DNA of 64,000 bases from NCBI GenBank assembly GCA_001782805.1, contig MFPT01000004.1:41294-105293 (forward strand), written 5' to 3'. Source of the stretch: Candidatus Magasanikbacteria bacterium RIFCSPHIGHO2_01_FULL_41_23 (GTDB lineage: Bacteria; Patescibacteriota; Patescibacteriia; Magasanikbacterales; UBA922). Position numbers and translations under genes: made by a program. Of this stretch, positions 845 to 64,000 are shown piece by piece. The notes below the pieces were generated by a model. That model was not told the origin of the DNA. It saw only the letters and a program-made list of their open reading frames with translations, and ran no database searches. Each line of letters begins with the position of its first letter. Within the stretch, counting starts at the first letter, position 1.

Positions 845-884
845 ATAACTATAATTTCAATATCGATTTAATAATAAATTTATT

Positions 885-1203
885 TTCTAAGTTTTAAGCA
901 AAATTCGTTTATCCTAAGTCTTAATCAAACTTCACTGATCCTCTTTTTTTCAACTGATAGTCTGACGGATTATGCATTCTCAGTAAGTCAATATACTCAG
1001 CTTTCAGAAAAAGAGGATTCAGTTCCAGTTTGTTTATTAGTATATTGGATGTTTCGCTGTTGCAATGCGAGACAGGGTTTAATCTTTGAAGCAAACTGGA
1101 GTGAGATCTTTTTCTCGATGCCCGAGCACGGTCGAGGGTCGAGAAAAACGGTCTCACGAAGTTTGCTTACGTGTTAGCAAAAAGGAATTTTTATTTTGAA
1201 TTC
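885..1203. repeat. Mosaic MITE-like intergenic repeat, copy A (TIR CTAAGTCTTAA[G/T]CAAA ... TTTGCTTACGTGTTAG)
   Basis: Shares long near-identical blocks with copies at 8050-8420, 24441-24800, 40362-40723 and 59590-59920 (inverted). Contains the imperfect hairpin tttttctcgatgcccgag...ctcgacc(c)tcgagaaaaa. Confidence 0.8.
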
Positions 1204-2117
1204 TTTAAAATGTTTAAAAATATTTTAAGGAATAGAAATATTTTATATGGTAATTTTCTAATCGGTAATTCAAAAGCTTGGCCGTGTGTTAAGCGCGTTC
1301 CCCCAAATCCGCTTTTAAATCGTGTAATTCCCGACCACGGATGATCTGCTTCGGCATTTTCCGGAGCCACGCCCCAAAAATCATAAATCTTGAATCCTTT
1401 TTCTTGAGCACGCAGAATCGCTGACCACTGTAATAAATACGGCGCCATAGTTTCCCGATGCGCGTTCGCGGACGCGCCATGCAGATATGTGTATGTTTCG
1501 CCATACTCAATAAAAATCGCGCTGGCCAATGGCTCATCATCCAAATAAACCGTGACTTGTTCAGTCAAATTACATGTCAACATTTTTTCATAATAATCAT
1601 TATTATGTGCGCCAAATTTATCGCGCCTGCTGGTTTCAGTCAGCAATTGATTAAAAACGATCGCATTTTTTTCCCAAGAAATAATTAAATTCTTTTTTTC
1701 CGCCAAACGAATATTATAGCGAGTTTTCGAGTGCATCTGAGTCAATAAATCTTCTTCCTTTTTATTTAAATCCAAAATCAGACTATGTTCTGGCTGTCGA
1801 TGTTTAACAACTTTTGCTTGTGAAGATAATGTTGGAAGTGCGGACAATGATTCAATTCTTATAAAAACAATTTTATTTTCCTTTTTGACAAATTCAACTA
1901 ATAATTCATAATCAGTTACAGCCAAATCAGCCTGCGGAATATACCAAAAAACGCCAACAAGCAAACGATGAACAAAAATTTGCACCGGTTTATCATTAAC
2001 CAAAAACCGCCGTGGCGTATTCCCCACGCTTGCCTGAAATTCTCCCCATTCCCAAGATTGCAAAAAACTCTTGGAACACGGCCATTCTGGCTTATCAAAA
2101 ATCTCAATAATGGACAT
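1191..2117 (-). CDS. FemAB-family peptidoglycan interpeptide-bridge aminoacyltransferase
   Basis: 308 aa with FemABX-type GNAT-like fold signatures (YLHGASANAHRETMAPYLLQW). The 3' end and stop codon lie inside repeat A. Confidence 0.7.
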   Translation of the reverse strand: MSIIEIFDKPEWPCSKSFLQSWEWGEFQASVGNTPRRFLVNDKPVQIFVHRLLVGVFWYIPQADLAVTDYELLVEFVKKENKIVFIRIESLSALPTLSSQAKVVKHRQPEHSLILDLNKKEEDLLTQMHSKTRYNIRLAEKKNLIISWEKNAIVFNQLLTETSRRDKFGAHNNDYYEKMLTCNLTEQVTVYLDDEPLASAIFIEYGETYTYLHGASANAHRETMAPYLLQWSAILRAQEKGFKIYDFWGVAPENAEADHPWSGITRFKSGFGGTRLTHGQAFELPIRKLPYKIFLFLKIFLNILKNSK

Positions 2118-8049: not shown

Positions 8050-8420
8050 AATCTTAAGAAAAATTCTTCTTTGCTAAATCTTAAGCAAATTTCATTCGTA
8101 CTAACTCTTAAGCAAAATTCGACGATATCCTTTTGTTCAACTGATAGTCTAACGGATTATGCATTCTCAACAAGTTATCATACTCAGCTTTCAGCAAAAG
8201 TATATTCGTCTCCATTTTGCTTATTAGTTTAGTCGAATGTTTCGCTGTTGCAATGCGAGACAGGGTTTAATCTTTGAAGCAAACTGGAGTGAGATCTTTT
8301 TCTCGATGCCCGAGCCTGTTTACCCTAAGCTTGTCGAAGGGTCGAGGGTCGAGAAAAATGGTCTCACGAAGTTTGCTTACGAGTTAGCAAAGAGGAATTT
8401 TTATTTTAATTTCCTTAATG
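8050..8420. repeat. Mosaic MITE-like intergenic repeat, copy B (TIRs CTAACTCTTAAGCAAA / TTTGCTTACGAGTTAG; three tandem half-sites at left end)
   Basis: Near-identical to copy C over ~170 bp and to copy A over the hairpin module. Ends with ggaatttttattttaatttccttaatg, shared with the groESL spacer element. Confidence 0.85.
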
Positions 8421-8447
8421 CAATTTAATAAATTATACCACAAAATT

Positions 8448-16195: not shown

Positions 16196-17857
<1,662 letters not shown>

Positions 17858-17860
17858 TTA

Positions 17861-17981
17861 AAGTGTGTTGATTAAAATAAAAATGGAATCCCGACAAGTC
17901 GGGATAAACTCCTGTAGCTTTTTTGAGCCCGATATTTATGAGGGTCTCAGAAAAAGATTTGCAGTGAATTTTTATTTTAAT
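17861..17981. repeat. Type-2 MITE-like element (TIR TTAAAATAAAAAT, internal palindrome ATCCCGACAAGTCGGGAT) inserted in groES-groEL spacer
   Basis: About 95% identical to 43738-43860. A partial copy lies at 47031-47075. It widens the normally short groES-groEL gap to ~155 nt. Confidence 0.8.
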
Positions 17982-17994
17982 TTCCTTAATGAGT

Positions 17995-24198: not shown

Positions 24199-24427
24199 AT
24201 AAACTGCCGAATATGCTTATAGTGATTTCGCCCAGAGCGCCGGTTACGGCTAAAATCGCCAAAATAATTCCGGCTAAGCCGATTAATTTATACATTAAAC
24301 GAGATCCGCCGCCACCTAATTTTTCCTCGGCCCAATCACTGTGACCAAAATTTTCGAGAAACCATTCGGTTTTGATGACCATTAAACAGCCGATTACAAC
24401 GACGATTGTGGCGACGAAGTATTTCAT
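24182..24427 (-). CDS. Small hypothetical membrane protein (2 TM)
   Basis: 81 aa. Two hydrophobic helices flanking a GGGGS linker. Confidence 0.45.
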   Translation of the reverse strand: MKYFVATIVVVIGCLMVIKTEWFLENFGHSDWAEEKLGGGGSRLMYKLIGLAGIILAILAVTGALGEITISIFGSLFGQPR

Positions 24428-24440
24428 ATAATAAATTTTT

Positions 24441-24800
24441 TCTAAGTCTTAAGCAAACTTAGTTTATTCTAACTCTTAAGCAAAATTCAACGATATCCTT
24501 TTCTTCAACTGATAGTCTAACGGATTATGCATTCTAAACAAGTCATCATACTCAGCTTTCAGCAAAAGTATATTCGTCTCCATTTTGCTTATTAGTTTAG
24601 TTGAATGTTTGGGTGTTGCATTAGGGTAATTTCAGTAGTAGGTAATTTTGTTTTTCAGTAATGTGTATGAGCTTTCTTACTACTTACTTGGTTAAAGTAG
24701 ATTTAATATATCAATAAGGATAGAAACTAGGGAGAGGAGAAGAATAGCGAGTTTTACTGAAAAGAAAATTACCTACTACTGAAATTCAGTTGATTTAAAT
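24441..24800. repeat. Mosaic MITE-like intergenic repeat, copy C (left TIR plus a 180-bp inverted-repeat module)
   Basis: Left half is nearly identical to copy B. Right half (24610-24790) is nearly identical to copy D 40510-40690. It contains a ~33-bp inverted repeat aatttcagtagtaggtaattttgtttttcagtaa ... ttactgaaaagaaaattacctactactgaaatt. Confidence 0.85.
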
Positions 24801-24846
24801 TCCAAGATATACTAGTATTGTATCCTCTCGCAAAAATTTTATCAAA

Positions 24847-25809
24847 TTATTTTGAAATCAATCGTTTAAATTCCTCCACCATTGGCACTTGCTCCGATTC
24901 CAAACCATACTGTTCGGCAATCGCCACTGCAGTCCAGTCTGCCAAGACCAATGCCCAAGCCATTTTTTCGATTGCGCTTTGACCAATTAAATTAATTTCA
25001 ATAACTGGCAATCCGCGAGCTTCGTATAATTTTTTTAAAACAGTAAAACGTTTTTGAATTTGGGGATGATCATCGTCATCGCGCAAAAATATAAACGTAA
25101 ATCGTTCTGACAATTCACGTGTTGGCTCAGCCACATCAAAACCATTCATTTCATTGTGATTGAGTTCAGGAAGAATATTATAAAACGCGGGAATTTTGCC
25201 GGTTTCATTACATTTTATTTTCCAATTATAAGCAATTGATTTGTTTTGTCGAGACGCATAGATAATCGGCACCCGCTTGAACAATTGCTTAGCCAGACTT
25301 TTACCTGATTTTTCTAAATCGTTAATCGCTAAATTAGTTAAATTTTCCATTGCCACCAAATCAGCTTCACAACCCAACAATTTCATAAGCGCACGCAAAC
25401 TATATGCCCAAGCTGATCGCGGCTGAATTCCCGTATTGGGTAATTGAATAAAAGGAATTTGATGTGCACGCGCGAAATCCAACAATTGACCACCAATTGC
25501 AATCGCGGCCATATTATATCCTCTTTTTAATCCTTCTTCACTGACAGCTAAAACTTCTTCTGTTCCGCCGGAATACGATGACAAAATTATCAAGGTATTT
25601 TTGGGATCAAGAATGACTGGCAAACCATAATCCGAATAAACTAGCAAATCAATATCCGGACGCAAACGTTCCAAGGCATCGGCCGCCAAATGTGATCCGC
25701 CCATACCAACGACAACGAAACGAGTGTAATTTTTTGCGTGAAAATCTCCGACAATCTCCGGCTGATATAAAAATTGTTGCGGGAATAAACGAATCGCGTC
25801 AGACATCAT
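24847..25809 (-). CDS. Bifunctional phosphoglucose/phosphomannose isomerase (SIS-domain, archaeal-type PGI/PMI)
   Basis: SIS-domain motifs VVGMGGSHLAA and SYSGGTEE. 320 aa. Confidence 0.65.
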   Translation of the reverse strand: MMSDAIRLFPQQFLYQPEIVGDFHAKNYTRFVVVGMGGSHLAADALERLRPDIDLLVYSDYGLPVILDPKNTLIILSSYSGGTEEVLAVSEEGLKRGYNMAAIAIGGQLLDFARAHQIPFIQLPNTGIQPRSAWAYSLRALMKLLGCEADLVAMENLTNLAINDLEKSGKSLAKQLFKRVPIIYASRQNKSIAYNWKIKCNETGKIPAFYNILPELNHNEMNGFDVAEPTRELSERFTFIFLRDDDDHPQIQKRFTVLKKLYEARGLPVIEINLIGQSAIEKMAWALVLADWTAVAIAEQYGLESEQVPMVEEFKRLISK

Positions 25810-25810
25810 A

Positions 25811-26614
25811 TTATTTTTTTGTTTGATTAATTAAACCGGAAAGAATTAATTCCAAGAGCGCTAAGACCACCACGGTCGCGCCGGTCGGCAAATCAAGATA
25901 AAATGAAATTAACAATCCGGCCACCATGGCGATAATGGAAAATAAAACTGAAATGACCAAAGTAACTTTGAAACTGGATTTGAATTGCATGGCCGCCGTC
26001 ACCGGAATTACCATCAGTGCGCCAATTAATAACACGCCGACAATGCGCATCGCCACGGCAATGGTTACCGCCGCCAACATGATCATAAATAAATTCAAAG
26101 CCGGCACGCGCAAACCTTCAGCTGCGGCCAAATCTTCATTTAGACTGACTAAAAATAATTCTTTGTATAAAAACAAAACTCCAATTAACGCCACAATTCC
26201 CAAACCAACAATTAACCATACATCCCATTGCGTTACCGTAGTAATACTGCCAAACAAATAACTGAATAAATTTTGATTAAAGCGTTGATTCGCGCCCATT
26301 AACAATAACGCAATCGCCAAACTGCCGGACAAAAAAATCGCCAAAACCGATTCACCAAATAAACGCCGACTGCTGCGCAAACGCTCGATTCCCCAGGCCG
26401 CGACGATGGCCACTCCGAGAGCAGAAATAATCGGATTGATGCGCGCGATTAAACCAAGAGCAACGCCAACCAATGAAACATGCGCCAAAGTATCAGCCAA
26501 ATACGAATAGCGCCGCACCACTAAAAATAATCCGATCATTGGCGCAATCACCGCAATGACCAAACCCGCGCCCAAAGCGCGTTGCATAAAATCATAAGCT
26601 AAAAATTCCAGCAT
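25811..26614 (-). CDS. Metal (Zn/Mn) ABC transporter permease, ABC-3 family
   Basis: 267 aa, 8 TM, ZnuB/MntB-like. Confidence 0.8.
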   Translation of the reverse strand: MLEFLAYDFMQRALGAGLVIAVIAPMIGLFLVVRRYSYLADTLAHVSLVGVALGLIARINPIISALGVAIVAAWGIERLRSSRRLFGESVLAIFLSGSLAIALLLMGANQRFNQNLFSYLFGSITTVTQWDVWLIVGLGIVALIGVLFLYKELFLVSLNEDLAAAEGLRVPALNLFMIMLAAVTIAVAMRIVGVLLIGALMVIPVTAAMQFKSSFKVTLVISVLFSIIAMVAGLLISFYLDLPTGATVVVLALLELILSGLINQTKK

Positions 26615-26617
26615 ATT

Positions 26618-27766
26618 TTAGATTTGTTTTGTTGACCGATTATAATATTGAACAGCAATAATGGTGGACAAAGGCACGGCGACCACCAGAGCAATACTGC
26701 CAATAAGCGCTCGCACCACTTCTTCACTGATAAGTTCGGTATTGAGCGTCACCCACCACGGCGTGCTGTAGACAGTAAATAAAAGAAGTAAGGGAAATGA
26801 TGCGCCAACATAAGCTAAAACTAAGGTATTCACAACCGAAGTTATATGTTCCCGTCCAATACGCGCGGCGCGATTATACAATTCACGAGCAGACAATTGC
26901 GGATTGGCGTGTTTTAATTCCGCTACCGCCGCTACTTGCGCAGTGGTTACATCATCCAACACGCCGAGCACACCAATAATAATACCGCCGAGTAATAAAC
27001 CGCGCAAATTAATGGGATGTTCAGTGCCAAATTGCAGATAATACGCTTCTTCACTTCCCATGCCAAAAAGTTGTGTTGCCTCGACGGCAAAATACGCCAA
27101 ACCCATGGCTCCGGCAATAGTAATCATAATACTCACAAAGGCCAAACAAGTTTCCCGATTAAAGCCATGCGCCAAAAATAATGACGATGAAGCGATGAGT
27201 GCCGTGCCGATTATACAAACCACAAATGGATTGCTCCCGCTCGTGACTTGCGGAATAATATAAAAACCAATTATTACCATGGTTAAGGCTAAGCCAACAA
27301 ACGCCATTGCTCCGCGTTTACCGGCAAAAGCAATCGTAATTCCGGCAAATAAAATCAATAACCAACCAATGGCCGGCAAGCGAAATTGTTCGGTAATGTA
27401 ATATTGAGTTATCTCCGGCGTAATATTTTTGACAACGATTACTCCATCTCCGGCAGTCATTTTTTTGGCTCGTGATTCGCCGCGAATTTGATAATCAACC
27501 GTGACGATTTTATTTTTTTCCAAACCACTCACAATCTCAACTTCCAATTTTTGTGTGATCAAAGGTTCGCCAAGTTCAATTGTTTTTTCTTCGCTGATCA
27601 CCCACATCACTTTGCCACGAGCATAACTATCTTCGCTCCTCGGTTCGGCATTATCGGCTTGGACAAATCCGACAATTAAAAAAAGACCAGCCAAAAAAAT
27701 ACCCAACAAAAAACGAAATTTAAATGTGGTAATGTTCAACCACTTTGGTATCATGACCATACACAT
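26618..27766 (-). CDS. YibE/F-family membrane protein
   Basis: GMGSEEAYYLQFG and LDDVTTAQVAAV motifs. Polytopic membrane protein. Confidence 0.7.
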   Translation of the reverse strand: MCMVMIPKWLNITTFKFRFLLGIFLAGLFLIVGFVQADNAEPRSEDSYARGKVMWVISEEKTIELGEPLITQKLEVEIVSGLEKNKIVTVDYQIRGESRAKKMTAGDGVIVVKNITPEITQYYITEQFRLPAIGWLLILFAGITIAFAGKRGAMAFVGLALTMVIIGFYIIPQVTSGSNPFVVCIIGTALIASSSLFLAHGFNRETCLAFVSIMITIAGAMGLAYFAVEATQLFGMGSEEAYYLQFGTEHPINLRGLLLGGIIIGVLGVLDDVTTAQVAAVAELKHANPQLSARELYNRAARIGREHITSVVNTLVLAYVGASFPLLLLFTVYSTPWWVTLNTELISEEVVRALIGSIALVVAVPLSTIIAVQYYNRSTKQI

Positions 27767-35562: not shown

Positions 35563-37509
35563 ATGCTTAAAAAAATCATCATTGGTTTTTGTTTCTTGTT
35601 TGGTATTTTTTTGTTTGAGAATCAAGCGCAGGCAGTTGATTCAACAAATAAAGCATCAAAATGTTGGACAAAAACAGCGTGTGAAAGTGCCAGAGCCGGA
35701 TTTGGCGGTGTTCCGGGCGAAGGTTTGTATACCGGATCTGATGCACAAGAATTGTGTGGAAAAGACCATCTAGTCCCCGGAGGTGGAAAAGAGCCTACTG
35801 GTTTTTGTCTGCCAGCCGGCCAATCAATCACCAAAATTTCCTTTGGTGGAAAACAAACATTTGCCAACTTCGGGGAATTTATCCAATACATTTACCGCTA
35901 TGGTATGTGGTTGGCCGGCATTCTGGCAGTTGCTTTTATTGTTATTTCCGGTTTGCAGTGGGCTGCTTCGGGTGGTAATTCTGATATGATCGGATCAGCC
36001 AAAAATAGAATTACCGGAGCCGTAACCGGACTTATTTTATTAGCACTGTCTTATACTATTCTTAGTACAATCAATCCATATTTGGTCCAATTACGTTTGC
36101 CACAAACCTGGATGATAAACAGAATTGGCATGGCCGCAGCGTTTTGTAGCGATGCAAAAGATGCAAAAATATCTCTTTTTACAAAATCTGATACTTCACA
36201 AATAGAAAAAGAAAAAATAAAAGCAACTAAATTGGCAGAGGTTGAAAGCAAAGGATATAAAGAAACATACCTAAATGCAAAATGTGGTTATGAGTATTTT
36301 GTGGATGGCACGTCCGGACAAACGTGCCAAGGGAATATTTGTGGAGGAGGAATATGTGGATCAGCAATCAAAGATAAAAAATTGACATCTAATAAAGTAT
36401 GCTACGAGGGTGATTTGATAATAAAATTTTCAGCAGACATGGCCAATAACTTTCTTTCCCAAGCTCCTTTTCTCGGTATTGGCTTCGCTCAACTTAAGGA
36501 TAAATGGCTGACTAATAATCTAGTAATATACGGAGTTTGTGAAATGCCAAATAATGGAGTCTGTTCATCTGACCAAACTATTAGCGGTGGTGAAAAAATA
36601 AAAATGAGTCAGAGCACTCTCGAGGGCGAAGTTCTCTCCAACTATTTACGAATATACCATGGGATTAGAGACCTTGGTGCCGGTACCTTTTGTAAAGATA
36701 CTGAATTAAAGAATTTAAAAGGAATAATAATAAAAACCGAACTTGACGAGAACTGGAAATTCACTGATCCTAATTTATACATTGCCATACCCTCGTCAGG
36801 AAATAACGCATACATAGGAGATTTTAAAACTGTTTTTGATAAAGTAAAAGCTGAAGATTCAGCTAAAGTATACGAAAGATTAAAGGTTGGTTTAGAATTA
36901 AATGCCCTCGTAACGTTTAACATGTTCTCCAAAATTTCTGATGAAGACTGGAGTGGACCAAATGATCTAGAATTCGAGGAGTTATGTAAAAATTACACAT
37001 CTAGTGAAGATGGTGCTGAAGTAAAATTAAAACTAAAAAAAGATACTGGTGGCTTCTGCTTCCTAGCTGGCACTGAAATTCTGACACCGGCTGGAAATAA
37101 AAAAATTGAAATGCTGGGAACCGGTGACGAAGTGATCTCTTATAATATTGAGGATGGTAGTTACCATATCGGAAAAATCGCTGGTGTACGCAAACAAAAT
37201 AGTGAAGCATATTATTTAATAAACCATGGCCTTCTTCGGGTCACTGATCAGCATCCTATATACTTAAGAAAGAAATCAAACAAACAAACTGGATGGGCGT
37301 CTAACAATCCTTCGGGGACACATAAATTAACTGGTCTAAACGTCATGCAATTAGAAGTTGGTGATGAAGTCTTTACAGATAACAAAAAATGGGTTAATAT
37401 CACAGATATTGTCCATATTTCAAAGGAAGTCGAGACCTATAATGTACTCAATGTTGAACCCTATAACACATACTTCGCAAACGGTATCCTAGTACACAAC
37501 AAAATATAG
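35563..37509 (+). CDS. Secreted Cys-rich protein: signal peptide + VirB2/TrbC-pilin-like double-TM segment + C-terminal Hint (intein/hedgehog-type) autoprocessing domain
   Basis: Signal peptide [24 protein letters not shown]. Hydrophobic pair [49 protein letters not shown] resembles conjugative pilin. More than 20 Cys in the extracytoplasmic part. C-terminal ~150 aa has Hint blocks [10 protein letters not shown] (A), RVTDQHPIY (B, TxxH), and [23 protein letters not shown] (F/G), ending VHNKI-stop. Confidence 0.75.
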
Positions 37510-37523
37510 ATCTCATATAGTAT

Positions 37524-40319
37524 ATGGACACCATCAAAATCACGAACGCGCGAGTCCACAATCTAAAAAGCGTTTCGTTGGAGATTCCCAAAAACAAATT
37601 AGTGGTTATTACAGGACTTTCCGGATCAGGAAAGTCCTCTTTGGCTTTTGATACGATTTATGCCGAAGGCCAGCGGCGTTATGCGGAAAGTTTAAATGCC
37701 TATGCGCGCCAATTTATGGATATGGCAGATAAGCCGGACGTTGATGAAATAACCGGTCTATCTCCCACCATTGCCATTCAACAACGCAATTACAGTGTGA
37801 ATCCACGTTCCACGGTGGGAACTGCCACGGAAATTTATGATTATTTACGTTTGTTATTTTCTCGAATCGGTACACAATATTGCCCGAATTGTAAAACAGC
37901 CGTGGCAACGCATACGTCAGGCGCAATTGTGGAGCGTATTCGCGCTTTGGCTCGCACTCAAGAAATTATTCTGGCCGCGCCCATTATTCATCAGGAAAAA
38001 ATTTCCCTTAAAAATTTAAAAAATCGACTGGAGCGAGCCGATGTGGAACGCGTACTTATTAATAACGTGGAAGTTAGTTTGAAATCACTGGTAAAATTTT
38101 CTTTCCACGATAGTCAAGTCTATGATGTGTCGGTAATAATTGCCACAATCAAAAACAACAGCAAAACTACATTGGCAAGTTTGGTGGAAAAAGCCTTGGA
38201 ACTGGGCAATGGCCATTGTGTGATAATAACTGCAGACAAAGAAGAAAAAATTTTCTCAACCAAACCAGTCTGCTCCACTTGTAGCCGAATATTTTTACCC
38301 ATTGAACCGCGATCATTCAGTTTTAACAGTCCGTATGGCGCGTGCTCGCGCTGTACCGGTCTTGGCGTGACATTGGAAGTTGATCCGGATTTAGTCATTC
38401 CCAACGCACGTTTAACTTTGGCCGAAGGCGCAGTTCAGCCATGGACACGGCTCGTGGGCAATCAACAATTTTACCAAGATCTTTTGGAACAAGTGGCGGC
38501 CAAAAATAATTTTTCCACACATATACCCGTGGAATCACTGTCCAAACGCGTGATGGATATTTTATTATATGGCACTGATGGCGACGAATATATAGTGGCC
38601 AAAGAAAAAGTTCATTTTGATGGCATTGTCCCGAATCTCAATAAGCGATATTTGGAAACCAAATCGGATTATCTCAAAAAAGAAATTGAACAATACATGC
38701 GCGAACGCATCTGTTCCATTTGCCAAGGATGCCGCCTAAAAGAAGACAATATATACATCAAAATTTTAGGAAAAAGTATTGCCTACATTGTGGATTTAAG
38801 TATTGAAGAATCTAAAAATTTTTTTTCTGAATTAGCCGGACAAAAAAATTCCCTGTCGAGCGTGGTCATGCCCATCGTGAAAGAAATGATCAAACGGATT
38901 GAATATCTGAATAATGTAGGATTGCCCTATTTGAATTTGGATCGTTCACTGGCGACCGTTTCAGGCGGTGAAGCGCAACGCATTCGCTTATCCACTCAAT
39001 TGGCGGCCGGATTATCCGGATTGATTTACATTTTAGATGAACCATCGGTCGGACTCCATCCCAAAGACAATGATCAATTAATCGTCACCTTAAAAAAATT
39101 ACGCGATGCCGGCAACACGGTAATTGTCGTGGAGCATGATAAAAGCATCATGGAAGCGGCTGATTACATTATTGACGTTGGTCCGGGGGCAGGTGAATAT
39201 GGCGGAGAAATTGTGGCGGCCGGAACATGCGCGCAAATTAAAAAAAATCAACATTCGCTTACGGGACAATACTTGAAAGGCGAAGCCAAAATTGGCAATG
39301 GCCAAAAACCACGCAAAGGAAACGGGCAAATTCTAAAGATTGTTGGCGCCAAATCACACAATTTAAAAAATATTGATGTGTCAATTCCTCTGGGAACATT
39401 AACGTGTTTTACCGGAGTTTCCGGATCAGGCAAATCAACTCTAGTCATAGATATTTTAAGCAAAGCATTAAACAGTTATTTTTATCGCGCGCACGCCACG
39501 CCTGGCGAACATGAAACTATTGTTGGTCTTGATCAGATTGATAAAGTAATTACCATTGATCAGGCTCCTATCGGGCGCACGCCACGCTCCAATCCGGCGA
39601 CGTATACTGGCCTTTTTACTTTAATTCGCGATGTTTTCGCCGAATTGCCCGAAGCAAAGATGCGGGGAATGAATGCGGGGACTTTTAGTTTTAATGTCAA
39701 AGACGGCGGACGTTGTGAAGCGTGTGGCGGCGAAGGTTACACCACGATTCCCATGCACTTTTTGAATGATGTTTTTATTGAATGCAGTGAATGTTTTGGC
39801 ACTCGCTATACCAAAGAAGTTTTGGAAATTCATTATCATTATAAACATATCGCCCAGGTCTTGGATATGACTGTGGAAGAAGCCTTTGTATTTTTTCATG
39901 GTTTGCCCAATATTCGCGAGAAACTGCAGATTTTGCGTACGGTGGGACTGGGTTATTTGCGTTTGCGTCAGCCGGCAACCACGCTTTCCGGCGGAGAAGC
40001 GCAACGAATTAAATTGGCAACTGAATTGTCGCGTCGTTCAACGGGCAAAACTCTGTATATCCTAGATGAACCGAGTACAGGTTTGCATTTTGAAGATATT
40101 AAAAAATTACTCACGGTTTTGAATCAATTGGTGGATAAAGGAAATACGGTTTTGATTATTGAACATAATTTGGAAATTGTTGGCTCGGCCGATTGGATTA
40201 TTGATTTGGGACCGGAAGGCGGCAAACGTGGTGGTGAAGTGGTGGCTACGGGCACGCCAAAAGAGATGGCGAAAAATGCACAGAGTTGGACGGGGAAATA
40301 TTTGGCGGCGAATAAATAA
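37524..40319 (+). CDS. uvrA: Excinuclease ABC subunit A
   Basis: 931 aa. Tandem ABC ATPase modules ([17 protein letters not shown] x2) and zinc fingers ([13 protein letters not shown]). Confidence 0.95.
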
Positions 40320-40361
40320 ACTTCTAGTAATAAAACCTCGTCTTTATTAACTCATAAAGAC

Positions 40362-40723
40362 TCCGTTTCCTAAGTCTTAAGCAAACTTCGTGAGACCATT
40401 TTTCTCGACCCTCGACCCTTCGACAAGCTCAGGGTAAACAGGCTCGGGCATCGAGAAAAAGATCTCACTCCAGTTTACTTATTAGGTATATTGAATGTTT
40501 CGGTGTTGCATTGGTGGGGAATTTCAGTAATAGGTAATTTTCTTTTTCAGTAATGTGTATGAGCTTTCTTACTACTTACTTGGTTAAAGTAGATTTAATA
40601 TATCAATAAGGATAGAAACTAGGGAGAGGAGAAGAATAGCGAGTTTTACTGAAAAGAAAATTACCTATTACTGAAATTACTGTTGAATTGATGTAAGTTG
40701 TAACTTATTTTAATTTCCTAAAT
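40362..40723. repeat. Mosaic MITE-like intergenic repeat, copy D (TIR + inverted hairpin module + 180-bp inverted-repeat module), inside uvrA 3' UTR
   Basis: Hairpin module is the reverse complement of that in copy B. Right half is nearly identical to copy C. A terminator hairpin follows at 40746-40774. Confidence 0.85.
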
Positions 40724-40745
40724 GTTTTTAGGATAAATAAAAAAT

Positions 40746-40774
40746 CCTCGTGATAAGCGGGGATTTTTTATTCC
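40746..40774 (+). terminator. Rho-independent terminator of uvrA transcript
   Basis: aaaaaatcctcgtgataagcggggatttttt: 7-bp stem with one G-U pair, then a T-run. Confidence 0.6.
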
Positions 40775-43719: not shown

Positions 43720-43737
43720 TATTCTTACATGTGTATT

Positions 43738-43860
43738 GATTAAAATAAAAATGGAACCCCGACAAGTCGGGATAAACTCCTTAAGCTTTTTTGAGCCCGA
43801 TATTTATGAGGGTCTCAGAAAAAGATTTGCAGTGAATTTTTATTTTAATTTCCTTAGATG
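43738..43860. repeat. Type-2 MITE-like element, second full copy (immediately 3' of tRNA-Arg)
   Basis: About 95% identical to 17861-17981. Confidence 0.8.
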
Positions 43861-59589: not shown

Positions 59590-59920
59590 TATCAGTCATC
59601 GCCGCTCGCTCGCAGATGGATTCAGTGAATGGCTCACTCACTACATTGTCCGCTCGGCTTTGATTATATATAGTATAGATTCAGCCTCGCGTCCAAACGT
59701 GCGCTGACTGACATGAATGCCAACCTCACTAATGCAACAGCGAAACATTCGATATACTGAATAAGCAAACTGGAACTGAATCCTCTTTTTCTGAAAGCTG
59801 AGTATATTGACTTACTGAGAATGCATAATCCGTCAGACTATCAGTTGAAAAAAAGAGGATCAGTGAAGTTTGCTTAAGACTTAGAAAACGAGGCTTGACT
59901 AAGTCTTACGAAAAAAATTA
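59590..59920. repeat. Mosaic MITE-like intergenic repeat, copy E (inverted relative to A; ends in a TIR-TIR pair)
   Basis: Reverse complement matches copy A over ~230 bp at ~90% identity. Right end is tttgcttaagacttag-N14-ctaagtcttacg. Confidence 0.85.
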
Positions 59921-62209: not shown

Positions 62210-62570
62210 ATTTGAATCTCTTTTATCCCGCCGAAGTCCGAAGGACAAAGGCGGGGTTTTGTTTAGGATTTGGGTAATTAAAGCCCTGTACGGGCTTGAA
62301 AAGCACAACTAAGTGCTTCTGTAGTGTTGGGTCAATTAGTACGCCTCGGCATACACCTAGCGCCTATCAATCTGGTCGTCTACCAGAGACCTCATAACGA
62401 ATATTAATCTTAAGAACGGCTTCGCACTTAGATGCTTTCAGCGCTTATCCGTGCCGAACTTAGCTACCCAGCTATGCCTTGCGGACAACTGGCACACCAG
62501 AGGTTCGTCAATCCCGGTCCTCTCGTACTAGGGATTGGTTCTCTCAATATTCAACGCCCACAGCAGATAG

Positions 62571-62622
<52 letters not shown>

Positions 62623-62635
62623 TGGCGAACAGCCA

Positions 62636-62666
<31 letters not shown>

Positions 62667-62681
62667 CGATGAGCCGACATC

Positions 62682-63037
62682 GTACTTTGTTCCACAGTTT
62701 CTTGTGGCGTAGACTATATCTTCTTCTTGCTCTGGATGGTAGCGGATGCCGACAAGTCGGCACGTGATCCGCGTAATCTCAGTTTGACTGTGCAAGAGTC
62801 GGCGTGTTGTCTCTCCTGATCATTAATCAGGAAAAACCTCCCCTTTCGGGTCAGTCGTTACGGGGTTATCCCGACATTGTCGGGAAACTTCCCACGGTAT
62901 TGCCGGGTGATTGTGGGTCAATCACTGACGGGTTCACCGTTATAAGCCGAATTTGTGTCTCTTAATCTATCTAAATTTAAAATTTTAACGAAAAGAATTG
63001 GGATAAACATTACTGTTTGTGCACCCCGATATGTTAA
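62682..63037 (-). mobile_element. ORF-less group I-type intron in 23S rRNA at the peptidyl-transferase centre (about E. coli position 2500)
   Basis: ~355-nt insertion between exon sequences GGCACCU and CGAUGUCGG. Contains group I S-element-like AAGAAGATATAGTCTAC and R-like GAGATTA. Confidence 0.7.
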
Positions 63038-63571
63038 GGTGCCAAACCGCGCCGTCGCTGTGGACGCTTGGGCGCGATCAGCCTGTTATCCCCGGAGTAG
63101 CTTTTATCCGTTGAGCTTCCGCCGTCCTATATCGTACGGTCGGATCACTAACTTCCGCTTTCGCGACTGATCGGGTGGTAGCCCTTTCAGTAAAGCTGGC
63201 TTTTGCGTTTGCACGTCCAGTCCGATTTCCATCCGGACTAAGCCAACCTTTGTAAACGCCTCCGTTACATTTTGGGAGGCAACCGCCCCAGTTAAACTAC
63301 CCATCAGATACTGTCTCTCTATCCTGATTCAAGGACAAAGATTAGATACATCGCTACGCAAGGGTGGTATCTCACTGACTCCCGACTTTCGTCGGGATCC
63401 CACCTATGCTGAACAAGCGAAGCAATGCACCAATATCAAACTATAGTAAAGCTTCACGGGGTCTTTTCGTCTAGTTGCGGGTATGTCGCATCTTCACGAC
63501 ACTTGCATTTTCGCCGAGTACATCGTCAAGACAGTCCACTCATCATTATGCCATTCGTGCGGGTCGGAACT

Positions 63572-64000
63572 CCAAATTGTGTTAACTCCGCGTTCCCACG
63601 GAGATCAGACTATACTTTCATCTTACTCACAATCTTTAGGAGATTTCCCTTATCATATTGTCTTGCGCCCATATTATTCATAGAGTACGCAACGTCAATA
63701 ATTTTACAAATTCCGTTTTGGGAAAGGTGGATACGCTGTTTCATTAACTCGCAAACTAATTTAAACTGTTCAAAATCTGAACGTTTAGAAGTTCGGATTG
63801 GAAACAAGTTAAAGTGCGGGATAATCTTTTTTACAAGATCAGCCAAACTTCTGACTTCGTACTTCCATGTTCTGTCGCGTTTATTAAAACGAATTGTTCC
63901 GCAGTTAAAAAACCGCTGAATTTCTTTAAGAATGTTTTTACTTCTCTCATGTTGACTGACTGTAAAAGCCGGTCTAACTTCAAGTCCTATTTTCATTCTT
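63572..64000 (-). mobile_element. Second 23S rRNA intron (about E. coli position 1917-1951), carrying a LAGLIDADG homing-endonuclease ORF; 5' part beyond window
   Basis: Exon sequence AGTTCCGACCCGCACGAATGG resumes at 63571. The upstream side does not match conserved CCUUGUCGGGUA but is coding. Confidence 0.7.
63610..64000 (-). CDS. LAGLIDADG-family homing endonuclease (C-terminal part; N-terminus with LAGLIDADG motif lies beyond window)
   Basis: SQHERSKNILKEIQRFFNCGTI...IIPHFNLFPIRTSKRSDFEQFKLVCELM matches the I-CreI-type core following the LAGLIDADG helix. Confidence 0.7.
   Translation of the reverse strand, partial: RMKIGLEVRPAFTVSQHERSKNILKEIQRFFNCGTIRFNKRDRTWKYEVRSLADLVKKIIPHFNLFPIRTSKRSDFEQFKLVCELMKQRIHLSQNGICKIIDVAYSMNNMGARQYDKGNLLKIVSKMKV

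What the first reader, a model, noticed from the sequence alone, without database searches (positions are those of the whole stretch)
24610..24790. 180-bp inverted-repeat module shared by repeat copies C and D, predicted to form a long stem-loop
24610-24790 and 40510-40690 are nearly identical. Each has ~33-bp perfect arms (aatttcagta[g/a]taggtaattttNtttttcagtaa ... ttactgaaaagaaaattacct[a/t]ctactgaaatt) around a ~110-nt core (tgtgtatgagctttcttactacttacttggttaaagtagatttaatatatcaataaggatagaaactagggagaggagaagaatagcgag).

This is an independently mobile sub-element, or a structured small RNA gene nested in the larger repeat. The arms are too long and too perfect for an ordinary terminator.
Basis: seen in the sequence. 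Interest (0 to 1): 0.6.

Follow-up and report, generated by a model that had tools for sequence, protein, structure and literature searches.

The report
Hairpin module of a dispersed intergenic repeat
The 165-base inverted repeat is real, but it is one interchangeable hairpin-forming block of a family of non-coding repeats scattered between the genes of a tiny-genome groundwater bacterium (Candidatus Magasanikbacteria), comparable to the small palindromic repeats known from many bacteria, and not a demonstrated gene or independent jumping element.

Summary
Confirmed: 24624-24786 and 40516-40678 are 98% identical. Each has 33-34-nt arms around a 92-nt core and folds far better than shuffled sequence.

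The source is a Candidatus Magasanikbacteria (CPR) genome. I found six more full copies, one truncated and one internally deleted, in related contigs.

In every copy whose flanks are held, the module sits between the same junction motif (GTTGCATTRG..GGG) and the same AT-rich tail. It lies inside a larger modular repeat, S-S-D1-J-IR-T or S-H'-J-IR-T. Other family members (883-1230, 8070-8437, 59733-59915) lack it.

- Arm complementarity is maintained: one pair shows three Watson-Crick states plus intermediates, another shows two, and one indel is matched on both arms. Statistical support is modest (17/500 shuffles).
- The arms vary less than the core (9/68 vs 30/92 variable columns).
- There is no Rfam match, promoter, U-tract or transposase nearby.
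- In related species the PGI/81-aa-gene spacer is 0-48 nt, against 419 nt here, so the composite element is an insertion.
- Two strain variants have rearrangement junctions inside these repeats.

Verdict: a new, lineage-restricted family of modular palindromic intergenic repeats (MITE/ERIC/BOX-like). Independent mobility of the module and a small-RNA gene are not supported. Moderate-to-low interest.

The parts
24628..24661 (+). IR module copy C, left arm (AATTTCAGTAGTAGGTAATTTTGTTTTTCAGTAA); contains two direct TTTCAGTA 8-mers 23 nt apart
24662..24753 (+). IR module copy C, 92-nt core. Its outer blocks (TGTGTATGAGC.. and ..AGAATAGCGAGTT) are conserved and extend the imperfect palindrome; the central ~63 nt (alignment columns 51-113) are the most variable part among copies.
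24754..24786 (+). IR module copy C, right arm (TTACTGAAAAGAAAATTACCTACTACTGAAATT)
40520..40553 (+). IR module copy D, left arm
40554..40645 (+). IR module copy D, core (identical to copy C core)
40646..40678 (+). IR module copy D, right arm
24602..24627 (+). Junction motif J (TGAATGTTTGGGTGTTGCA) plus TTAGGGT linker, directly 5' of the IR in copy C. The same motif precedes every IR copy and is also present in the IR-less copies A, B and E.
40492..40519 (+). Junction motif J plus linker, 5' of the IR in copy D
24438..24601 (+). S-S-D1 module of copy C. A ~115-nt imperfect hairpin whose basal stem is TAAGCAAAAT/ATTTTGCTTA; six base pairs show double compensatory changes between the A/E-type and the B/C-type copies.
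40366..40480 (+). S-H' module of copy D, the reverse complement of the hairpin module H of copies A and B (96% to 8277-8391). It replaces D1 upstream of J.
24787..24803 (+). Tail T of copy C (CAGTTGATTTAAATTCC), shortened form
40679..40718 (+). Tail T of copy D, ending in TTATTTTAATTTCC. This terminus is also found at copy B and at both copies of the F2 repeat family.
883..1230 (+). Family copy A (S-S-D1-J-x-H-S'-T), no IR module
8070..8437 (+). Family copy B (S-S-S-D1-J-x-H-S'-T), no IR module
59733..59915 (-). Family copy E (S-D1-J followed by unique sequence), no IR module
24817..24845 (-). Promoter-like TTGATA-17-TACAAT just after the PGI stop. L084 has a similar site, TTGCCA-17-TACAAT, in its 48-nt spacer. 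Element C lies between this site and the ATG at 24427, so it would be transcribed (minus strand) as a 5' leader.

Best explanation
The 165-nt inverted repeat is one facultative, hairpin-forming module ('IR') of a lineage-restricted family of non-coding, modular, dispersed intergenic repeats in a Candidatus Magasanikbacteria (CPR) genome.

A family member is a chain of blocks:
- one to three S motifs (TAAGTCTTAAGCAAA);
- a first long hairpin with a swappable interior (D1 or H') on a common basal stem (TAAGCAAAyT/ArTTTGCTTA);
- a junction motif J (GAATGTTTCGSTGTTGCA);
- then either the IR hairpin or an H hairpin;
- then an AT-rich tail T (..TTATTTTAATTTCC).

Shown: composite elements are insertions into intergenic spacers, including the space between a promoter-like site and a start codon. 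Copies recombine with each other, which shuffles modules and rearranges the genome. IR is inherited and spread as part of the J-IR-T block, not alone.

Inferred: because the elements lie inside transcription units in either orientation, IR is transcribed as part of 5' or 3' untranslated regions. There it forms a ~33-bp double-stranded RNA stem. That stem would be a substrate for the RNase III encoded in the window, or a barrier that stabilises the RNA. This, and/or template-switch correction of the quasi-palindrome during replication, would keep the arms complementary. The arms vary less than the core and each carries two TTTCAGTA repeats, so a sequence-specific protein may also recognise them.
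For: - Real and non-random.
- Source organism: Candidatus Magasanikbacteria, GCA_001784325.1.
- Further IR copies: L042, L058, L041 (truncated), L070, L071, L082, and an internally deleted copy in L075 (11897-11945).
- Constant context: every copy has T downstream. All 9 whose upstream flank is held have J upstream, preceded by D1 (C, L058, L070, L071, L075 mini) or H' (D, L042, L082).
- J occurs without IR in copies A, B and E.
- Arm pairing: pair 15/146 is G-C, T-A or A-T, with G.A and G.T intermediates. Pair 11/150 is G-C or A-T, with an A.C intermediate. The T5/A4, T4/A4 and T5/A5 run lengths include a matched indel. 96.1% of cells are paired.
- Arms vary less than the core: 9/68 against 30/92 variable columns, p=0.005.
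- The D1 hairpin has six pairs with double compensatory changes, so the family as a whole is built of maintained hairpins.
- Insertion: the PGI-to-81-aa-gene spacer is 48 nt in L084 and 0 nt in L085, with synteny kept, against 419 nt here. No family repeats were found in those contigs.
- Recombination: the L082 breakpoint lies inside H' of copy D, and L077 is an inversion junction through D1 next to copy C.
- RNase III gene in the window.
- No transposase, integrase or reverse transcriptase in the window.
Against: - There are no expression data, so transcription and any RNA-level role are inferred only.
- Covariation rests on two pairs and one indel among seven full copies. 17 of 500 shuffles reach the observed score, and the tool description itself warns that related sequences can give this without structure.
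- Mismatch types do not favour one strand: G.U on + in L071, G.U on - in L042 and L058.
- Within the source genome, IR is 98% identical between C and D while the adjacent J is about 80% identical. That could mean IR moved or was converted separately from its flanks.
- The mechanism that inserts composite elements is unknown. No target-site duplication was recognised.
- Only 64 kb plus ~10 kb of the source genome and a handful of related contigs could be read.
Confidence: 0.6

Rival explanations
1. IR is an independent non-autonomous transposon (a MITE) nested in the larger repeat. Its 33-nt arms are terminal inverted repeats bound by a transposase encoded elsewhere, and it inserts site-specifically next to the J motif of the host repeat.
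For: - TIR-like arms that vary less than the core, each with two TTTCAGTA sub-repeats.
- Sharp boundaries: C and D are 98% identical inside IR but only ~80% in J and ~65% in T.
- IR occurs behind two different upstream modules, D1 or H'.
- The same core type occurs in both contexts: C/D, and L058/L082.
- The terminal AATT is palindromic, so a 2-4-nt target duplication cannot be excluded.
- Tandem duplications in the J-IR linker of L070 and L071 could be footprints.
Against: - All 9 copies whose upstream flank is held share the same upstream J, and all 10 share a recognisable T.
- The 20-mer arm scans of GTDB genomes and 241 M metagenome records returned no true copy outside this context.
- No empty J-T site and no recognisable target-site duplication were found.
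- There is no transposase in 64 kb plus flanks.
- Transposase binding does not predict compensatory changes in the arms.
- Recombination between copies is directly observed (L082) and explains the shuffling of upstream partners.
Confidence: 0.15
2. IR (alone or with D1-J) is a structured small RNA gene or cis-acting RNA element with a specific function that depends on its fold.
For: - Very stable predicted fold on both strands.
- Compensatory changes in the IR arms and six in the neighbouring D1 hairpin.
- Invariant blocks next to the arms.
- Two one-sided changes in D1 are G.U on the + strand.
Against: - No Rfam family matches at gathering score or at E<=5.
- No promoter-like or terminator-like site lies in the module.
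- The predicted core structure is not conserved: pairs are broken in L070 and L071, and there is a 2-nt indel.
- Wobble evidence in IR is split between strands.
- There are many copies per genome at non-syntenic sites in both orientations relative to genes.
- One copy has lost 120 nt internally yet persists 10 nt from the ksgA start.
- Close relatives lack the element at the orthologous site.
Confidence: 0.1
3. IR is a DNA-level protein-binding or recombination site. Four TTTCAGTA sites are arranged as two direct plus two inverted copies. They could serve a regulator, a nucleoid protein or a site-specific recombinase, with the hairpin potential incidental.
For: - All four 8-mers are invariant in all seven full copies.
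- The 8-mer occurs in the window only in the IR copies, apart from one site in the 23S gene.
- The arm sequence varies less than the core.
- Rearrangement junctions lie in these repeats.
Against: - The observed breakpoints lie in H' and D1, not in IR, as expected for general homologous recombination.
- Compensatory substitutions and the matched indel point to pairing between the arms, not to two independent binding sites.
- No candidate binding protein was identified.
Confidence: 0.1

Closest known systems
ERIC/IRU (enterobacterial repetitive intergenic consensus) elements
   Same: Imperfect palindromes of ~130-200 nt in transcribed intergenic regions, in either orientation. They have length variants caused by an extra block at a fixed internal site and by internal deletions, and compensatory changes keep the hairpin (features of ERIC from my own knowledge). 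Here: the IR block is present or absent at a fixed site after J, there is a 120-nt internal deletion variant, and the arms are maintained.
   Different: There is no sequence similarity and a different phylum (CPR). The family here is a chain of several different hairpin modules, not one palindrome. The copies seen come from one source genome, close strain variants and a few contigs of unknown relatedness, not from a whole bacterial family.
Neisseria Correia elements (CREE) and other bacterial MITEs (reviewed in PMC3184786 and PMC2229807, abstracts seen)
   Same: A 100-170-bp non-coding element with ~26-33-bp terminal inverted repeats, multi-copy and intergenic. It is co-transcribed with neighbouring genes, so it forms a long dsRNA hairpin. 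RNase III processing of Correia hairpins is from my own knowledge.
   Different: Correia elements insert independently at TA with a TA duplication and occur alone. IR here is never found alone, shows no recognisable duplication, and is always between J and T of a larger repeat.
Pneumococcal BOX elements and E. coli BIMEs (modular mosaic repeats)
   Same: Built from a small set of interchangeable modules (boxA/B/C; REP types plus linkers). Modules are present or absent between copies, they form stable stem-loops, and they lie in intergenic regions (own knowledge).
   Different: The modules here are much longer (110-165 nt hairpins), with different sequences. No RAYT/TnpA-like gene or other mobilising gene is seen in the window.
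REPIN/RAYT systems
   Same: Two inverted sequence units forming a long hairpin, with complementarity kept and many copies per genome.
   Different: The IR arms are not themselves palindromic REP units. The spacer is 92 nt. No RAYT (Y1 transposase) gene is in the 64-kb window or in the other related contigs whose annotation the look-ups returned, and the whole genome could not be searched.

Membership tests
MITE (miniature inverted-repeat transposable element) | Terminal inverted repeats at both ends | tested here: met
   33-34-nt arms, 96% of cells paired across 7 copies
MITE (miniature inverted-repeat transposable element) | Small (<~500 bp) and without coding capacity | tested here: met
   ~159-nt module (163 nt with the linker bases); no ORF of >=20 aa lies within it, though one 20-aa TTG ORF in copy D starts in J and ends in the left arm. 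The 18-codon frame in the core is broken by a 2-nt indel in L058, L070 and L071.
MITE (miniature inverted-repeat transposable element) | Multiple dispersed copies | tested here: met
   2 full copies plus 1 deleted copy in ~75 kb of the source genome, and 6 more in related contigs at different loci
MITE (miniature inverted-repeat transposable element) | Target-site duplication flanking each copy | tested here: not met
   The flanks are the conserved J linker (..GGGT/GGGG) on the left and T (CAGTTGA../ACTGTTGA..) on the right, with no direct repeat. Only the palindromic AATT inside the arms is ambiguous.
MITE (miniature inverted-repeat transposable element) | Insertion at independent sites (filled versus empty sites for the element itself) | tested here: not met
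   For IR alone: it always lies between J and T, and no empty J-T site was found. For the composite element the criterion is met: the spacer is 48 nt or 0 nt in L084 and L085 against 419 nt here.
MITE (miniature inverted-repeat transposable element) | A related autonomous IS with matching ends in the genome or lineage | not testable with these tools
   No transposase is in the window or in the related loci whose annotation the look-ups returned.
Intrinsic (Rho-independent) terminator | Short G+C-rich stem-loop followed by a U-tract | tested here: not met
   The stem is 33 bp and A+T-rich with a 92-nt loop. No T-run follows it on either strand, and the terminator scan found no site overlapping either copy.
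Any described RNA family (Rfam 15) | Covariance-model match at or near the gathering score | tested here: not met
   No hit in or near any repeat copy at gathering score or at E<=5
Structured RNA gene (generic) | Conserved secondary structure supported by covariation beyond what relatedness gives | tested here: inconclusive
   The outer stem has 2 pairs with double changes and a covariation score of 0.049 against 0.026, reached by 17/500 shuffles. The core helices are not supported.
REP/REPIN with RAYT | Associated RAYT (IS200/IS605-like Y1 transposase) gene; short palindromic REP units | tested here: not met
   The arms are not palindromic units. No Y1 transposase was found among the window genes. 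Absence genome-wide is not testable.

The most novel reading that the evidence does not exclude
The composite S-D1-J-IR-T elements are a previously undescribed class of hairpin-chain element in CPR bacteria. One possibility is a mobile element that moves as single-stranded DNA through its maintained hairpins, using an unrecognised enzyme, with swappable hairpin cassettes on a common basal stem. Another is a multi-copy family of structured RNAs embedded in untranslated regions that controls expression of housekeeping operons such as groESL, ksgA and the nusA-upstream genes in a genome with few regulators.
Probability: 0.12. Interest if true: 0.65.

Novelty: new member of a known kind. Interest (0 to 1): 0.33.

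Why it matters
CPR/Patescibacteria genomes are about 1 Mb and highly streamlined. Even so, this one carries a modular repeat roughly every 10 kb (7 D1-type copies and 2 F2 copies in ~75 kb), some between a promoter-like site and a start codon or inside the groES-groEL spacer.

I found no paper describing such repeats in CPR bacteria. They matter in practice for three reasons:
- contigs break at them (L078, L076);
- they sit at the junctions of strain-level inversions and rearrangements (L077, L082);
- they add long double-stranded RNA hairpins to the leaders of conserved genes.

The 165-nt module itself is an ordinary kind of object, a palindromic repeat module. It is not a new gene or mechanism.

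Tried and rejected
- **Rfam** at gathering score and at E<=5 on the whole window: nothing at any repeat.
- **Arm 20-mer scans.** The scan of 185,579 GTDB genomes gave only single-arm chance hits. One was a 26-nt match inside a Saccharibacteria gene (L002), which I judged chance because the window has no homologue of that gene. The same pattern in metagenomes gave 3 true copies among 41 loci. L038 was rejected as chance.
- **Viral contig scans** with the invariant IR block and the invariant D1 block: no hits.
- **Coding hypothesis for D1.** There is a 35-aa frame on the minus strand (METNILLLKAEY..). I rejected it as a real gene: the ATG is CTG in copies A and E, the stop is lost in P0001 and P0003, and the differences between types are exactly the compensatory stem changes. 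It was useful only as a handle to fetch more loci.
- **Coding hypothesis for the IR core** (18-codon frame): broken by a 2-nt indel.
- **Six-frame 'pseudo-protein' query** built from the IR and H modules: only a mis-called 280-aa ORF came back.
- **Promoter and terminator scans** of both loci: nothing inside the module.
- **Integron attC, retron msd and guide-RNA scaffold readings.** I considered and dropped them. There is no integrase, reverse transcriptase or nuclease gene nearby, housekeeping genes lie between the copies, and the sequence after J is not variable in the way a guide would be.
- **Literature search** for CPR MITEs or the assembly accession: nothing relevant.

Full report
**1. 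Observation**

The two stretches are real. The repeat finder reports 24624-24786 and 40516-40678 as a 163-nt direct repeat at 98% identity (sequences).

- Copy C: left arm 24628-24661, 92-nt core 24662-24753, right arm 24754-24786.
- Copy D: left arm 40520-40553, core 40554-40645, right arm 40646-40678.
- Arm matches are not expected by chance: 0 in 100 shuffles.
- The arms are nearly but not fully perfect. Copy C has a G.G mismatch and a 1-nt bulge; copy D has only the bulge.
- The copies differ at three positions. Two of them (24638 G/A and 24776 C/T) are the two sides of one base pair.
- Predicted folding is far better than for shuffled sequence, as RNA on either strand and as DNA (z -7.3, -8.6 and -8.0).

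**2. Source and setting**

Exact-protein look-ups place the window on contig MFQH01000003.1 of GCA_001784325.1, a Candidatus Magasanikbacteria (CPR/Patescibacteria) genome from the Rifle aquifer set.

The window holds housekeeping genes and no transposase, integrase or reverse transcriptase. Among these genes are PGI, the znu/ABC-3 transporter, nusA, uvrA, L19, RNase III, groEL and glpX.

**3. The module belongs to a larger modular repeat**

Five intergenic repeats in the window share the junction motif J, GAATGTTTCGSTGTTGCA.

| Copy | Coordinates | Architecture |
|---|---|---|
| A | 883-1230 | S-S-D1-J-x-H-S'-T |
| B | 8070-8437 | S-S-S-D1-J-x-H-S'-T |
| C | 24438-24803 | S-S-D1-J-IR-T |
| D | 40366-40718 | S-H'-J-IR-T (H' is the reverse complement of H) |
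| E | 59915-59733, minus strand | S-D1-J followed by unique sequence |

- S is TAAGTCTTAAGCAAA, found at 10 sites against 0.3 expected.
- T ends in TTATTTTAATTTCC. That terminus is also carried by a second repeat family, F2 (17863-17988 and 43731-43856).
- Two more D1 copies lie in the 10 kb upstream of the window (L075).
- D1 is itself a ~115-nt hairpin. Six of its base pairs show double compensatory changes between the A/E type and the B/C type.
- The same basal stem (TAAGCAAAyT/ArTTTGCTTA) closes the D1 hairpin. By my reading of the sequences, it also closes the H/H' hairpins.

**4. More copies of IR**

The arm 20-mer found no true copy among GTDB species representatives. It found three in metagenome contigs: L042, L058 and the truncated L041.

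Using a spurious 35-aa frame in D1 as a handle brought in L070 and L071. Look-ups of window proteins in other assemblies gave L082 (a new variant), L077 (identical to C), and an internally deleted copy in L075. That deleted copy reads AATTTCAGTAG|AAAACAAAATTACCGATTACTGAAATT and ends 10 nt before the ksgA start codon.

Pairwise identity among full copies is 81-95% over the aligned stretch, which includes short flanks.

In every case IR is followed by T. It is preceded by J plus a G-rich linker in all copies whose upstream flank is held; L041 is cut by the contig end. The block upstream of J is D1 in C, L058, L070, L071 and the L075 mini copy, and H' in D, L042 and L082. No copy was found outside this context, and no J-T junction lacking IR was found.

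**5. Is the hairpin maintained?**

Across seven full copies, 28 of 33 arm pairs never vary.

- Pair 15/146 occurs as G-C (C, D, L058), T-A (L070) and A-T (L082). G.A (L042) and G.T (L071) are half-step intermediates.
- Pair 11/150 is G-C or A-T (D), with A.C in L042 and L058.
- The T-run/A-run lengths are 5/4, 4/4 or 5/5 (L071), which amounts to a matched indel.
- The covariation score is 0.049 against 0.026 for shuffles, reached by 17 of 500 shuffles. This is suggestive but not decisive, and the tool description warns about relatedness.
- Mismatch types do not single out a strand. L071 has two G.U on the + strand; L042 and L058 have one G.U on the - strand.
- The arms vary less than the core: 9/68 against 30/92 variable columns, Fisher p=0.005.
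- Each arm holds two TTTCAGTA 8-mers that are invariant in all copies.
- The helices predicted in the core are not kept in L070 and L071.

So complementarity of the outer stem is maintained. The arm sequence is also constrained, or the copies are young. The centre drifts freely.

**6. Mobility**

The composite element is an insertion. In two related species (PGI 69% and 64% identical) the gene order ABC-3, PGI, 81-aa gene, methyltransferase is kept. The PGI/81-aa spacer is 48 nt (L084) or absent (L085), against 419 nt in the window. None of the family profiles hits those contigs.

L084 and the window share a promoter-like site just after the PGI stop: TTGCCA-17-TACAAT and TTGATA-17-TACAAT. Element C lies between that site and the ATG at 24427. 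If the site is active, the whole element, including IR, is transcribed on the minus strand as a ~390-nt leader.

For IR on its own, the tests for mobility fail:
- its context is constant;
- there is no target-site duplication;
- no empty site was found.

The one observation in favour is that C and D are 98% identical within IR but only ~80% in J and ~65% in T. Gene conversion between copies explains this equally well.

**7. Recombination between copies is directly visible**

L082 comes from another sample and is 99.7% identical over 13 kb. It matches copy D exactly through S-H' up to GGCATCGAGAAAAA. It then switches to a different J-IR-T and a different downstream gene, thioredoxin.

L077 joins the D1 copy that follows ksgA to the D1-IR-PGI side of copy C. 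This is the junction expected from an inversion between two inverted D1 copies ~27 kb apart. The two D1 copies are 96% identical over 154 nt, so a 141-mer assembly chimera seems unlikely, but read-level confirmation is needed.

This recombination accounts for the same IR core type appearing behind either D1 or H'.

**8. What it is not**

- No Rfam family matches, even at E<=5.
- There is no promoter-like or terminator-like site in the module, and no U-tract after the stem on either strand.
- No ORF of 20 aa or more lies within the module.
- There is no copy in viral contigs.
- I found no publication on such repeats in CPR bacteria.

**9. Most likely working**

*Shown:* IR is a facultative hairpin module of a modular intergenic repeat family. 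The composite elements are insertions. Copies recombine.

*Inferred:* the elements sit inside transcription units in both orientations. By my reading of the flanking genes, they are antisense to the neighbours in A, B, C, L042 and L071, and sense in D, E, L070, L082 and the L075 mini copy. Because the module is palindromic, IR is transcribed as a ~33-bp dsRNA stem in untranslated regions whichever way it faces.

Such a stem is the classical substrate of RNase III, which the window encodes, or it could act as a stabilising 3' or 5' structure. Selection on that stem, and/or template-switch correction of quasi-palindromes during replication, would keep the arms complementary. The template-switch mechanism is my own knowledge and was not tested here. 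A sequence-specific protein acting on the TTTCAGTA sites cannot be excluded.

**10. Comparison and verdict**

The element works like ERIC, Correia and BOX/BIME-type repeats:
- a palindromic, transcribed, modular intergenic repeat;
- an optional block at a fixed internal site;
- deletion variants.

It shares no sequence with any of them and fails two defining MITE criteria when taken alone (target-site duplication and independent insertion sites). I file it as a new, lineage-restricted member of the known kind 'small palindromic/modular intergenic repeats', not as a MITE sensu stricto and not as an RNA gene.

Interest is moderate to low. The setting, a streamlined CPR genome with about one repeat per 10 kb and repeat-mediated rearrangements, is the more noteworthy part.

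Noticed in passing
window 62328-64000 (minus strand): The 23S rRNA gene is interrupted. The Rfam LSU match covers model positions 2046-2912 in 1177 nt, and there are sub-threshold group I intron hits at 62691-63015 (33 bits) and 63586-63896. rRNA introns are a known CPR trait.
   Followed up: no
window 17863-17988 and 43731-43856: A second repeat family ('F2', 126 nt, 97% identical). One copy lies immediately upstream of the 547-aa ORF that starts at 17839; I took that ORF for groEL from its MAKQIIF N-terminus, not from a Pfam scan. The other copy lies 15 nt after a tRNA gene. F2 shares its right terminus, GAATTTTTATTTTAATTTCCTTA, with copy B of the D1 family and also occurs in L042, L082 and L083.
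   Followed up: partly
L077 4530-5000 (ERZ4903125) versus window 24467-27627 and L075 12860-13040: This contig joins the ksgA-side D1 copy to copy C (D1-IR-PGI). That is the junction expected from a ~27-kb inversion between two inverted D1 repeats in another population.
   Followed up: partly
L082 12777-13230 (ERZ27254754) versus window 40300-40760: The sequence is identical to the uvrA locus through S-H' of copy D. It then switches inside the repeat to a different J-IR-T and a different downstream gene (thioredoxin). The rearrangement breakpoint is inside the element.
   Followed up: yes
L075 11897-11945 (10 kb upstream of the window, same genome): An internally deleted IR: 11 nt of the left arm are fused to 27 nt of the right arm, still between J and T, ending 10 nt before the ksgA (RrnaAD) start codon.
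   Followed up: yes
window 24476-24583 (minus strand) and equivalents in other D1 copies: A 35-aa frame (METNILLLKAEYDDLFRMHNPLDYQLKKRISLNFA) is open in several D1 copies and is called as a gene in three public contigs (P0001-P0003). It lacks an ATG in copies A and E and loses its stop in P0001 and P0003, so it is probably not a gene.
   Followed up: yes
L070 9940-9965 and L071 4520-4550 (J-IR linker): There are short tandem duplications exactly at the J-IR junction: GCATTGG x2 in L070 and GGTGTTGCATTA x2 (second unit GGTGTTGCCTTT) in L071. These could be slippage or footprints.
   Followed up: no
L002 4248-4273 (Saccharibacteria MAG CAZBOT010000003.1): A 26-nt exact match to the left arm of copy C lies antisense inside a 306-aa gene next to a large membrane protein. 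The window has no homologue of that gene. The match is probably chance, but it is longer than the 20-nt search pattern required.
   Followed up: partly
window 35563-37509 (+): A 648-aa protein has an N-terminal T4SS-pilin-like domain and a C-terminal Hint/intein-like domain. Intein-containing gyrB and dnaB genes occur in related contigs L070 and L071.
   Followed up: no
L076 and L078 contig ends: Several public contigs of this population end inside D1 copies (L076 at both ends, L078 at position 1). These repeats therefore break short-read assemblies.
   Followed up: no
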